The position numbers and the translations under genes are program-made. This document shows positions 29,258-30,391 of a stretch of DNA of 31,645 nucleotides, in pieces. The DNA is from a virus. Lineage: Duplodnaviria > Heunggongvirae > Uroviricota > Caudoviricetes. The notes below the pieces were generated by a model. It did not search any database and had not been told where the DNA came from. It worked only from the letters and a program-made list of their open reading frames with translations. The stretch lies in the IMG/VR virus record IMGVR_UViG_3300045988_013781. One strand, 5' to 3'. Each line of letters opens with the position of its first letter. Positions within the stretch are counted from its first letter, which is position 1.

Positions 29258-29557
29258 GTGAGAAAGTTAAGCCGACTTGAAAAATATCACATGAACAAGG
29301 TTTCAATGCGCAGCCCTTCAAAGGTTGTTGCCGTTACTCCTGCAGCGATAGAGATCGAAAAACGCGCAATTGAAAGAGAGAAAAAAGGGCAGTTCCGCAT
29401 TGCCGCCCACCTTTGGCTTCAGTGTATGGATGTTGCTTCTGGTGATGTTGAGCGTGCAAGGATCGCGGTTCGCAGGGACCAATGTATCACAAAAGGTAAC
29501 GGCCTTCGCCGTGGCGACTATAGCGGCATAGGATGTTGTGGGGTGGTTTATGACTAA
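29258..29557 (+). CDS. PerC/Pch-like transcriptional regulator (tentative)
   Basis: 99 aa from GTG; alternative ATG at 29288. EKKGQFRIAAHLWLQCMDVASGDVERARIAVRRDQC resembles the PerC core (RGFWRRAATRWMDVF...ERQWVRQRVHHCQ) as recalled. Confidence 0.45.
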   Translation: MRKLSRLEKYHMNKVSMRSPSKVVAVTPAAIEIEKRAIEREKKGQFRIAAHLWLQCMDVASGDVERARIAVRRDQCITKGNGLRRGDYSGIGCCGVVYD

Positions 29558-30200
29558 GAAATACACACTAATCTATGCAGATCCACCCTGGGTATACCGG
29601 GACAAAGCCGCAGATGGTAATCGCGGTGCCGGTTTTAAATATCCAGTTATGAGTGTGCTGGATATCTGCCGCCTTCCTGTGTGGGATTTGGCCGCTGAAA
29701 ACTGTCTGTTGGCCATGTGGTGGGTGCCAACACAACCACTCGAAGCACTAAAAGTTGTTGAAGCCTGGGGATTCCGTCTGATGACCATGAAGGGCTTCAC
29801 GTGGATAAAATGTGGTAGTCGACAACAAGATAAACTGGTTATGGGTATGGGACACATGACTCGCGCCAATAGTGAAGATTGCCTGTTTGCGGTAAAGGGA
29901 AAACTACCTACGCGCATTAATGCAGGTATCGTTCAGTCATTTACCGCACCGCGGCTTGAGCATTCAAGAAAACCAGATGTCGTTCGTGAAAAACTTGTGC
30001 AATTGTTAGGCGATGTTTCTCGCATTGAACTGTTCGCCCGCCAGTCGTCTCATGGCTTCGATGTTTGGGGTAATCAGTGCGAAGACCCGGCAGTGCAACT
30101 ACATCCTGGTTACGCGTTGGATATTGGCGGATTAACAAATGCATTCAGCAATTCTCCGCTGTCACCAACAGACAACCAGGGGCGGGAGCGTGCAGCATGA
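29550..30200 (+). CDS. MT-A70-family DNA N6-adenine methyltransferase
   Basis: The translation from the ATG at 29550 begins MTKKYTLIYADPPW, the hallmark DPPW catalytic motif of this family. Confidence 0.75.
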   Translation: MTKKYTLIYADPPWVYRDKAADGNRGAGFKYPVMSVLDICRLPVWDLAAENCLLAMWWVPTQPLEALKVVEAWGFRLMTMKGFTWIKCGSRQQDKLVMGMGHMTRANSEDCLFAVKGKLPTRINAGIVQSFTAPRLEHSRKPDVVREKLVQLLGDVSRIELFARQSSHGFDVWGNQCEDPAVQLHPGYALDIGGLTNAFSNSPLSPTDNQGRERAA

Positions 30201-30391
30201 ACCGGGCATCACCAGCAGATTTAAGGAAATGCCTTGAAACTGCAAACATGCTTGCACACAGCGGGATCAGGTTTGTTCCAATTCCCGCTGTCACTGATGC
30301 TGAATTTGCAACACTGTCAGCAATATTCGCAGATAAAATTGAATCACTGGCAGCAGAAGCCGAGATGGAAGAAAATCAGCAGAACTATTAA
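30197..30391 (+). CDS. Small hypothetical protein next to the integrase
   Basis: 64 aa. The ATG overlaps the methyltransferase stop (ATGA). Convergent with int. No family recognised. Confidence 0.4.
   Translation: MNRASPADLRKCLETANMLAHSGIRFVPIPAVTDAEFATLSAIFADKIESLAAEAEMEENQQNY

What the first reader, a model, noticed from the sequence alone, without database searches (positions are those of the whole stretch)
29550..30391. Orphan MT-A70 adenine methyltransferase translationally coupled to a 64-aa ORF
The methyltransferase (DPPW motif) has no partner restriction enzyme in the window and its stop overlaps the start of a 64-aa protein (ATGA). Orphan phage methyltransferases of this family protect phage DNA from host restriction and can alter host gene expression. 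The coupled small protein could be a specificity or regulatory partner.
Basis: partly seen in the sequence, partly recalled or inferred. Interest (0 to 1): 0.4.

Follow-up and report, generated by a model that had tools for sequence, protein, structure and literature searches.

The report
Known phage methylase plus Orf63-like gene
The two genes are real and overlap as described, but they are already-annotated genes of a phiV10-like E. coli prophage. One is an orphan MT-A70 adenine methyltransferase. The other is a homolog of the lambda Orf63 developmental protein, sitting in a swappable slot rather than acting as the methylase's partner.

Summary
An MT-A70 methyltransferase (29550-30200, DPPW at aa 11-14) ends in ATGA, which starts a 64-aa ORF (30197-30391), and the prophage has no restriction enzyme.

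The window is a phiV10-like (Uetakevirus) prophage next to guaA. Both genes are already annotated in phiV10, as gp33 (DNA methyltransferase) and gp32 (DUF1382).

The 64-aa protein is a homolog of lambda Orf63 (PDB 8DSB), a pro-lytic dimeric protein that works in lambda, which shows no MT-A70 near orf63.

In near-identical prophages the same ATGA junction leads into other genes:
- DUF1382 in 371 E. coli genomes
- a NinI phosphatase in 144
- an 82-aa ORF in a few

More distant MT-A70 genes keep the same GGAG...ATGA end in front of six further cargos. Four-base overlaps are also the norm in this operon. The "partner" idea is therefore not supported.

The closest studied homolog is M.EcoPA8orf6770P of Stx phages (83% identical). 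It does need a partner, but that partner is the upstream wHTH protein PNB-2, with which it methylates 16S rRNA. PNB-2 is absent here.

Relatives tested on their own methylate GATC. The most likely function is a stand-alone Dam-like DNA adenine methyltransferase. The finding is ordinary and already known.

The parts
26638..26666 (+). Promoter-like site (TTGACA-17-AATCAT). It is the probable early-left promoter of the operon that ends with the two genes.
   Evidence: It lies just after a terminator-like hairpin at 26567-26586 that follows the repressor gene. No +-strand terminator was found from here to 30391. This is a consensus match only and is not above the chance count.
28900..29148 (+). 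AlpA-family regulator / probable excisionase
   Evidence: Pfam Phage_AlpA E 3.1e-5. phrog_66, excisionase/regulator. Equals phiV10 gp36.
29145..29261 (+). 38-aa membrane protein ORF
   Evidence: phrog_17484 E 2.6e-27. Equals phiV10 gp35. ATGA overlap with the AlpA gene.
29258..29557 (+). PerC-like small protein directly upstream of the methyltransferase. Its stop overlaps the methyltransferase start by 8 nt.
   Evidence: Pfam PerC E 6e-7. phrog_868 E 6.5e-62. 65-78% identical homologs in the Uetakeviruses Tyrion and BUCT711 and in a related Salmonella prophage at guaA. No similarity to PNB-2. The start codon is uncertain (29258, 29291 or 29306).
29550..30200 (+). MT-A70 family (beta-class) N6-adenine methyltransferase, 216 aa. 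Orphan, equals phiV10 gp33.
   Evidence: 83% identical over aa 1-187 to the Stx-phage enzyme studied in PMC10810198.
29580..29591 (+). Codons of the catalytic motif IV, DPPW
   Evidence: Read from the sequence. Aligned to DPPW of Tetrahymena MTA1 and to METTL3-family chains.
30111..30200 (+). Variable C-terminal tail of the methyltransferase (aa 188-216)
   Evidence: Homology to the Stx-phage enzyme stops at aa 187 / nt ~30081. The same tail occurs in Tyrion and in a Salmonella prophage in front of other downstream genes.
30184..30200 (+). Shine-Dalgarno-like GGGAG followed by the ATGA stop/start overlap (a generic translational-coupling junction)
   Evidence: The same GGAG-N6-8-ATGA/GTGA junction ends the MT-A70 genes of 8 phages that carry different downstream genes.
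30197..30391 (+). DUF1382 / lambda Orf63 homolog, 64 aa, equals phiV10 gp32. Last gene of the operon.
   Evidence: Pfam DUF1382 E 1.3e-30. PDB 8DSB E 6e-13. phrog_292. Alignment with lambda Orf63.
30395..31645 (-). P4-type tyrosine integrase, convergent with the operon. Its stop lies 3 nt from the DUF1382 stop.
   Evidence: Pfam Arm-DNA-bind_3, Phage_int_M and Phage_integrase. guaA lies beyond it in E. coli E47.

Best explanation
The finding covers the last two genes of the early-left operon of a phiV10-like temperate podophage integrated next to guaA.

Gene 1 encodes a compact single-domain MT-A70 (beta-class) N6-adenine methyltransferase with no restriction partner. Its most likely activity is Dam-like methylation of GATC in DNA, carried out without a dedicated specificity subunit. 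It would be made when the operon is derepressed on infection or induction. The likely consequences are full methylation of replicating phage DNA and a shift in induction behaviour, rather than classical anti-restriction.

Gene 2 encodes an Orf63-type (DUF1382) dimeric pro-lytic developmental protein that functions independently of the methyltransferase. It sits in a hypervariable cargo slot between the methyltransferase gene and int.

The ATGA overlap, with a GGAG inside the methyltransferase 3' end, is a generic coupling junction that serves whatever gene occupies the slot.

Shown here: gene identities, intact motifs, orphan status, slot swapping and absence of PNB-2. Inferred: GATC specificity, autonomy of the enzyme, expression timing and biological role.
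For: Identity and context:
- The region is 98% identical to phiV10 and 100% identical to E. coli E47, with the same annotations.
- MT-A70 is matched full length with DPPW, and all family-invariant residues are kept.

GATC specificity:
- Serratia phage BZS1 p32 (MT-A70) expressed alone in a dam- host protects GATC, and Tn1549 M.EfaBMDam is GATC-specific (PMC7556043).
- The window enzyme is 46% identical to HK639_35, which that paper reports as 75% identical to BZS1 p32.
- M.EcoGV, described as highly similar to M.EcoPA8orf6770P, methylates GATC in vivo when overproduced (cited in PMC10810198).
- The window enzyme is 83% identical to the M.EcoPA8-type protein.

Autonomy of the enzyme:
- The clade is single-domain in nearly all listed homologs.
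- It occurs in unrelated contexts with unrelated neighbours: the nin region between NinB and NinD, after lysis genes, and before Dcm.

DUF1382 is independent of the methyltransferase:
- It is homologous to lambda Orf63, which is pro-lytic in lambda and Phi24B (PMC5575149, PMC10869804).
- No MT-A70 homolog was found in the 5 kb around lambda orf63.
- DUF1382 follows unrelated genes in Klebsiella, Pseudomonas, P1-like and PDP46 phages.

Slot swapping:
- 80 IMG/VR loci with a 97-100% identical methyltransferase split as 54 DUF1382 (plus 1 frameshifted), 21 NinI phosphatase and 4 an 82-aa ORF, all at the same ATGA.
- Among E. coli complete genomes, 371 have the DUF1382 junction and 144 the NinI junction, out of 539 carriers.
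- The junction is conserved across the clade.
- Overlaps are the operon norm.
Against: - Purified M.EcoPA8orf6770P (83% identical) showed almost no activity on DNA in vitro, including dam- DNA. It became active, on 16S rRNA, only with PNB-2 (PMC10810198). A stand-alone GATC DNA activity for this subgroup therefore rests on in vivo overexpression data.
- GATC is neither enriched nor avoided in the window (111 observed against 123 +/- 10 expected), so the sequence gives no independent support for the motif.
- MT-A70 next to DUF1382 recurs in Oslovirus Stx phages (41-nt overlap). In a Raoultella prophage the two genes lie about 450 nt apart. A functional link is therefore not excluded.
- The structure model was too poor to use (pLDDT 50.6).
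Confidence: 0.6

Rival explanations
1. The enzyme is chiefly an RNA methyltransferase that modifies 16S rRNA, like the M.EcoPA8orf6770P-PNB-2 holoenzyme of Stx phages. Through this it raises spontaneous prophage induction, using some adaptor other than PNB-2.
For: - 83% identity over the catalytic core to the studied enzyme.
- That enzyme alone is nearly inactive on DNA and prefers 16S rRNA/30S once bound to PNB-2. DPPW->APPA abolishes its effect on induction (PMC10810198).
- The closest solved relatives by sequence are MTA1 and METTL3.
Against: - PNB-2 is absent from the window (tblastn E>1; BLASTP and hhalign negative against the upstream PerC-like protein).
- The C-terminal tail proposed to bind PNB-2 is replaced.
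- In PMC10810198 the rRNA target rests on SAM-consumption assays, and the modified base is not mapped.
- Clade members tested alone methylate GATC in DNA (PMC7556043).
Confidence: 0.2
2. One reading: the translationally coupled DUF1382 protein is a specificity or regulatory subunit of the methyltransferase.
For: - ATGA coupling should give roughly stoichiometric co-expression.
- MT-A70 next to DUF1382 is also seen in Oslovirus Stx phages, with a different junction.
- Orf63 has a hydrophobic cleft that binds a helix, and its partner is unknown (PMC10869804).
- Both proteins are reported to favour induction or lytic growth (PMC10810198, PMC5575149).
Against: - The slot holds NinI phosphatase or other ORFs in about 30% of prophages whose methyltransferase, tail included, is the same length and 97-100% identical.
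- The same tail precedes unrelated genes in Tyrion and Salmonella.
- Lambda Orf63 works where no MT-A70 homolog is found nearby.
- In 13 of about 16 distinct DUF1382 contexts examined there is no MT-A70 nearby.
- Most clade members lack a DUF1382 neighbour.
- In phiPA8 the identified partner is the upstream gene product.
Confidence: 0.05
3. The upstream PerC-like protein, whose stop overlaps the methyltransferase start by 8 nt, is the functional analogue of PNB-2 in phiV10-like phages.
For: - It is immediately upstream and overlapping, in the same position as PNB-2.
- PerC-like genes are kept in the same region in the Uetakeviruses Tyrion and BUCT711 and in a related Salmonella prophage.
- One contig encodes a PerC-MT-A70 fusion (P0001).
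Against: - No homology to PNB-2.
- In Tyrion, BUCT711 and Salmonella, one or two other genes separate it from the methyltransferase.
- Enterobacter phage BUCT554 matched the probe only over its AlpA/PerC half, suggesting PerC occurs without this methyltransferase.
- The single fusion is most simply a frameshift in the 8-nt overlap.
Confidence: 0.06
4. The methyltransferase is an anti-restriction enzyme with a novel, non-GATC motif that protects phage DNA from host type II systems.
For: - This is the general behaviour of phage orphan methyltransferases.
- Some clade members sit next to a Dcm-like methyltransferase, which suggests DNA-protective methylation islands.
- There is a 23-24-aa indel relative to the GATC-proven BZS1/HK639 subgroup, in a loop that may contact DNA.
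Against: - Both subgroups contain a member reported to methylate GATC (PMC7556043; M.EcoGV via PMC10810198).
- The protein has no separate target-recognition domain (216 aa, of which 172 are the core domain).
- No experimental or sequence evidence for another motif was found.
Confidence: 0.07

Closest known systems
phiV10 gp33 / gp32 (NC_007804; PhiV10p33 DNA methyltransferase, PhiV10p32 DUF1382 family protein)
   Same: Same genes, order, overlaps and flanks (AlpA, 38-aa ORF, PerC, methyltransferase, DUF1382, convergent P4-type integrase). 98% nucleotide identity.
   Different: Only point differences. The window matches E. coli E47 100% over the 1.5-kb probe.
M.EcoPA8orf6770P-PNB-2 of Stx phage phiPA8 (PMC10810198), and M.EcoGV of E. 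coli O104:H4
   Same: MT-A70 catalytic core 83% identical over aa 1-187. DPPW present. Prophage early-region location. DUF1382 gene immediately downstream.
   Different: The window has no PNB-2 gene and a different C-terminal tail. Its upstream neighbour is a PerC-like protein. The junction to DUF1382 is a 4-nt overlap here and a 41-nt overlap there. The host phage is a podovirus (Uetakevirus), not a Sepvirinae Stx phage.
GATC-specific bacterial MT-A70 enzymes: Serratia phage BZS1 p32 and Tn1549 M.EfaBMDam (PMC7556043)
   Same: Single-domain beta-class MT-A70. Prophage accessory gene near int. 46% identity to the BZS1-like HK639_35.
   Different: The window enzyme lacks the 23-24-aa insertion after the FTW(V/I)K strand that marks the BZS1/HK639 subgroup. 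Its specificity has not been tested.
Lambda Orf63 (DUF1382; PDB 8DSB; PMC10869804, PMC5575149)
   Same: Same family and length. 49-51% identity. The conserved GIRFVPIP strand and E36/K47 are kept. Lies in the pL-side accessory region between the recombination genes and int.
   Different: In lambda it follows orf60a and precedes orf61, with no methyltransferase nearby. The window protein has Glu where lambda has Lys54. K54E inactivated lambda Orf63, although Glu is the commoner residue in the family (PMC10869804).
Eukaryotic MT-A70 complexes (METTL3-METTL14; ciliate MTA1c)
   Same: Same catalytic fold family and the same DPPW motif.
   Different: Those enzymes need a paralogous MT-A70 partner and accessory subunits. 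The window has only one MT-A70 gene.

Membership tests
MT-A70 / beta-class N6-adenine methyltransferases (PF05063) | Domain match above the curated threshold over the full model | tested here: met
   80.8 bits against a 23.9 cut-off, model positions 1-172/172. PDB relatives are MTA1 (E 2.4e-13) and METTL3.
MT-A70 / beta-class N6-adenine methyltransferases (PF05063) | Catalytic motif IV (DPPW/DPPY) near the N-terminus, and the conserved C-terminal ELFAR...WGN block | tested here: met
   DPPW at aa 11-14 and IELFARQSSHGFDVWGNQ at aa 159-176. All invariant columns of 34 homologs are kept.
MT-A70 / beta-class N6-adenine methyltransferases (PF05063) | SAM-dependent methyl transfer to adenine N6 | not testable with these tools
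   Needs enzymology or methylome sequencing.
Type II restriction-modification system | Cognate restriction endonuclease gene next to the methyltransferase | tested here: not met
   The neighbours are PerC-like, DUF1382 and integrase. No endonuclease is annotated in the whole prophage, and none was found by Pfam or PADLOC.
Dam-like GATC-specific bacterial MT-A70 subgroup (BZS1 p32, M.EfaBMDam, M.EcoGV) | Close sequence relationship to an experimentally GATC-specific member | tested here: inconclusive
   46% identical to HK639_35, which PMC7556043 reports as 75% identical to BZS1 p32, with a 23-24-aa indel. 83% identical to the M.EcoPA8/M.EcoGV type, whose GATC activity is known only from overexpression (PMC10810198).
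Dam-like GATC-specific bacterial MT-A70 subgroup (BZS1 p32, M.EfaBMDam, M.EcoGV) | Methylation of GATC | not testable with these tools
   The GATC count in the window is unremarkable and says nothing either way.
M.EcoPA8orf6770P-PNB-2 16S rRNA methyltransferase holoenzyme | Catalytic subunit orthologous to M.EcoPA8orf6770P | tested here: met
   83% identity over aa 1-187 to the phi191/PA2 protein. The identity of that gene was confirmed through the terminator sequence quoted in the paper.
M.EcoPA8orf6770P-PNB-2 16S rRNA methyltransferase holoenzyme | Adjacent upstream PNB-2 (143-aa wHTH) gene | tested here: not met
   No PNB-2 homolog anywhere in the window (best tblastn E 4.1). The upstream PerC-like protein is unrelated.
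M.EcoPA8orf6770P-PNB-2 16S rRNA methyltransferase holoenzyme | The C-terminal ~27 residues proposed to be needed for the complex | tested here: not met
   Similarity ends at aa 187 and the tails are unrelated.
DUF1382 / lambda Orf63 family | Full-length family match and homology to the solved Orf63 dimer | tested here: met
   PF07131 E 1.3e-30, model positions 1-60/60. 8DSB E 6e-13. Invariant R10, E14, G23, RFV and P30 are kept.
DUF1382 / lambda Orf63 family | Pro-lytic effect on the lysis-lysogeny decision and on induction | not testable with these tools
   Known only for lambda and Phi24B (PMC5575149, PMC10869804).
Translationally coupled functional pair (enzyme plus dedicated subunit) | Conserved co-occurrence of the two genes across relatives | tested here: not met
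   The slot is occupied by NinI or other ORFs in about 30% of near-identical prophages. Further cargos follow more distant homologs. DUF1382 mostly occurs without MT-A70.

The most novel reading that the evidence does not exclude
The phiV10-type MT-A70 lacks PNB-2 and carries its own 29-residue tail. It might recruit a different adaptor, namely the Orf63/DUF1382 dimer made from the overlapping gene. Orf63 has a helix-binding cleft and no known ligand. Such a link would mechanistically connect two separately reported pro-induction activities: M.EcoPA8 in Stx phages and Orf63 in lambda/Phi24B. It would also give Orf63 its long-sought partner.
Probability: 0.05. Interest if true: 0.55.

Novelty: already known. 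Interest (0 to 1): 0.15.

Why it matters
As it stands, this matters little. Both genes are annotated in a phage sequenced years ago and belong to studied families.

One point is mildly useful. About 10% of complete E. coli genomes (539 of 5,426) carry this methyltransferase variant without the PNB-2 subunit that its Stx-phage homolog needs. They carry it with either Orf63 or a NinI phosphatase behind it.

These natural variants offer a ready comparison for two questions:
- whether bacterial MT-A70 enzymes act on GATC DNA on their own or need adaptors;
- whether they influence prophage induction outside Stx phages.

Tried and rejected
- **Structure prediction.** AlphaFold2 on a 34-sequence alignment gave mean pLDDT 50.6. 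This is too poor for fold search, so it was not used.
- **PerC-like versus PNB-2.** BLASTP found nothing and hhalign gave probability 0.3%. Rejected.
- **PNB-2 or PNB-1 elsewhere in the window.** tblastn gave only chance hits.
- **GATC bias as a signature of specificity.** 111 sites against 123 +/- 10 expected, so there is no signal.
- **RNA families and repeats.** An Rfam scan of 25000-31645 found no match. A repeat scan of 28800-31645 found only short chance pairs.
- **Broad census of DUF1382 in species-representative genomes.** 16 of the 26 loci returned were lambda DNA contamination, which left few independent contexts.
- **Hidden restriction enzyme or defence gene in unnamed ORFs.** None found.
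- **Fang et al. 2012 (M.EcoGV).** The paper could not be opened. It is cited only through PMC10810198.
- **NCBIfam.** No model for either protein.

Full report
**1. Observation**

The ORF list and sequence show a 216-aa ORF at 29550-30200 (+). It begins MTKKYTLIYADPPWVY. Its stop overlaps the ATG of a 64-aa ORF at 30197-30391 (+) in the sequence GCAGCATGAACC.

- Pfam matches the first protein to MT-A70 over the entire model (E 1.4e-22).
- Pfam matches the second to DUF1382 over the entire model (E 1.3e-30).

**2. What the window is**

The 1.5-kb region is 98% identical to Escherichia phage phiV10 and its relatives (Uetakevirus), and 100% identical to a prophage of E. coli E47.

- In phiV10 the genes are already annotated as gp33 (DNA methyltransferase) and gp32 (DUF1382 family protein).
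- The flanking genes are AlpA, a 38-aa membrane protein, a PerC-like activator and a convergent P4-type integrase.
- In E47 the integrase abuts guaA.
- No restriction endonuclease is annotated anywhere in the prophage. Pfam and PADLOC scans of unnamed ORFs found none. The methyltransferase is therefore an orphan.

The two genes end an operon:

- It probably starts at a promoter-like site at 26638-26666, just after the terminator of the repressor gene.
- No +-strand terminator was detected before 30391.
- Five of the seven junctions in this operon are 4-nt ATGA/GTGA overlaps and one is an 8-nt overlap. The overlap that drew attention is the local norm.

**3. The small protein**

It is a homolog of lambda Orf63:

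- phmmer against the PDB hits only 8DSB (E 6e-13), the NMR structure of lambda Orf63 (PMC10869804).
- tblastn places lambda's copy at the orf63 position, after orf60a.

What is known about Orf63:

- It is a dimeric, non-essential protein that favours lytic development and efficient induction in lambda and Phi24B (PMC5575149, PMC10869804).
- It did not bind a test dsDNA, and its partner is unknown.

No MT-A70 homolog was found in the 5 kb around lambda orf63. DUF1382 also follows unrelated genes in Klebsiella, Pseudomonas, P1-like and PDP46 phages.

**4. Is it a partner of the methyltransferase?**

Comparative data argue against this.

Near-identical prophages carry different genes at the same junction:

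| Sample | DUF1382 | NinI-like phosphatase (219 aa) | Other |
|---|---|---|---|
| 80 IMG/VR loci, methyltransferase 97-100% identical | 54 (+1 frameshifted) | 21 | 4 (an 82-aa ORF) |
| 539 E. coli complete genomes carrying the methyltransferase 3' half, of 5,426 | 371 | 144 | not resolved |

The methyltransferase, including its tail, keeps the same length and 97-100% identity across these variants.

More distant relatives show further cargos:

- The same long tail precedes a 68-aa ORF in Enterobacter phage Tyrion and a 59-aa coiled-coil ORF in a Salmonella prophage.
- More distant clade members are followed by a 63-aa ORF, a 65-aa ORF, Dcm, NinD or nothing.
- All these genes end in GGAG-N6-8-ATGA or GTGA. 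The coupling signal therefore belongs to the methyltransferase 3' end and serves whatever cargo lies behind it.

One observation points the other way:

- MT-A70 directly followed by DUF1382 recurs in Oslovirus Stx phages (phi191, PA2), with a different, 41-nt overlap.
- A Raoultella prophage has the two genes about 450 nt apart.
- Both gene families live in the same small accessory region next to int. About 13 of 16 distinct DUF1382 contexts lack MT-A70. I read this recurrence as regional co-localisation, though a link is not excluded.

**5. What the methyltransferase does**

The literature changes the picture here.

*The Stx-phage homolog (Gong et al., PMC10810198).* They studied the MT-A70 gene that IS629 disrupts in Stx phage PA2. 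I confirmed that this gene is the homolog in my locus L004, using the terminator sequence they quote. It is 83% identical to the window protein over aa 1-187. They report the following:

- The enzyme (M.EcoPA8orf6770P) raises spontaneous induction.
- A DPPW->APPA mutant does not.
- The pure protein has almost no activity on DNA, including dam- DNA.
- It forms a 1:1 complex with PNB-2, the product of the gene immediately upstream (a 143-aa wHTH protein).
- The complex prefers 16S rRNA in 30S subunits.
- They propose that the C-terminal ~27 residues are needed for the complex.
- They note that the very similar M.EcoGV methylates GATC in vivo when overproduced.

*How the window differs from that system.*

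- PNB-2 is absent from the window.
- The upstream PerC-like protein is unrelated to it.
- The methyltransferase tail beyond aa 187 is different.
- PNB-2 homologs do accompany MT-A70 in HK639 and in a Klebsiella phage.

*Evidence for GATC specificity.*

- Serratia phage BZS1 p32, an MT-A70 enzyme expressed alone in a dam- host, is GATC-specific. So is Tn1549 M.EfaBMDam (PMC7556043).
- The window enzyme is 46% identical to HK639_35, which that paper reports as 75% identical to BZS1 p32. It differs by a 23-24-aa indel.

*Evidence for autonomy.*

- The clade is single-domain. 2,264 homologs were found, almost all of 188-220 aa.
- It occurs with many unrelated neighbours.

*Ranking.* The most probable activity is therefore stand-alone, Dam-like GATC methylation of DNA. 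An rRNA-directed activity with some unknown adaptor is the main rival. Because E. coli is already Dam+, classical anti-restriction is not an obvious benefit. Complete methylation of rapidly replicating phage DNA, or an effect on induction, is more plausible. This last step is inference.

**6. Things that gave nothing**

- The AlphaFold model was poor (pLDDT 50.6).
- GATC frequency is unremarkable.
- Rfam and repeat scans were empty.
- NCBIfam has no model for either protein.

**7. Verdict**

- The orphan methyltransferase reading is supported.
- The proposal that the 64-aa protein is a partner is not supported. That protein is an Orf63-type cargo gene in a swappable slot.
- Everything here is already annotated and belongs to studied families.
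- The one modestly interesting point is that this common E. coli prophage carries the Stx-phage-type MT-A70 without its published PNB-2 partner.

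Noticed in passing
L177-L192 (genome-contig loci): Sixteen of the 26 DUF1382 loci come from non-enteric assemblies (Shewanella, Pseudomonas, Paenibacillus, Oceanobacillus, Kitasatospora, Segatella and Nanosynbacter MAGs and others). They are 96-100% identical to phage lambda DNA, several on contigs of about 48 kb. This looks like lambda control-DNA contamination of public assemblies.
   Followed up: yes
window 29258-29557 (+): The start of the PerC-like gene is annotated differently in phiV10 RefSeq (ATG 29291) and E47 RefSeq (ATG 29306). The residues KL(S/T)RLEKYH upstream of both ATGs are conserved in the Tyrion and Salmonella homologs (BUCT711 keeps only EKYH). This favours the GTG at 29258, which overlaps the 38-aa ORF by GTGA.
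   Followed up: partly
window 30389-30397: The stops of DUF1382 (+) and of the integrase (-) are convergent and only 3 nt apart, with no terminator-like hairpin detected. Read-through of the early-left operon would be antisense to int.
   Followed up: no
window 16740-19134, including tRNA-Arg(TCT) 17535-17611 (+) and ORF 17762-18682 (+): A tRNA-Arg gene and an opposite-strand ORF of unknown function sit between the portal and terminase genes. The ORF has no Pfam hit and only weak PADLOC hits. This 2.4-kb stretch has no GATC site. It looks like a moron insertion.
   Followed up: partly
P0001 (297 aa): One contig encodes a PerC + MT-A70 fusion protein 99% identical to the window methyltransferase. 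The simplest explanation is a frameshift in the 8-nt overlap rather than a real fusion.
   Followed up: no
window 30184-30200, and the 3' ends of the MT-A70 genes in L002, L198-L203: Eight of the nine MT-A70 genes of this clade examined end with GGAG, 6-8 nt, then ATGA or GTGA, whatever gene follows. The exception is phi191. The junction acts as a conserved docking port at a mosaic boundary.
   Followed up: yes
window 21548-22663 (-) and 21198-21551 (-): An Ead/Ea22-like + DUF551 protein and a NinX homolog are present. Relatives carry DUF1317 upstream of the methyltransferase. DUF1317 sits next to DUF1382 in BP-4795-type Stx phages, where lambda has orf61. Several lambda exo-xis and nin-region accessory genes therefore circulate in these podophages.
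   Followed up: no
window 27151-28850 (+): The PD-(D/E)XK nuclease (DUF3799) and RecT are two ORFs with a 4-nt overlap here. The phiV10 RefSeq record annotates a single 1761-nt RecE-RecT fusion at the same place.
   Followed up: no
L004 (phage PA2) 1584-3523: The MT-A70 gene of Stx phage PA2 is split by an IS3-family element (IS629 according to PMC10810198). Many Stx2a phage records match only aa 93-187 of the methyltransferase. This suggests the gene is often truncated or disrupted in O157 Stx2a phages.
   Followed up: partly
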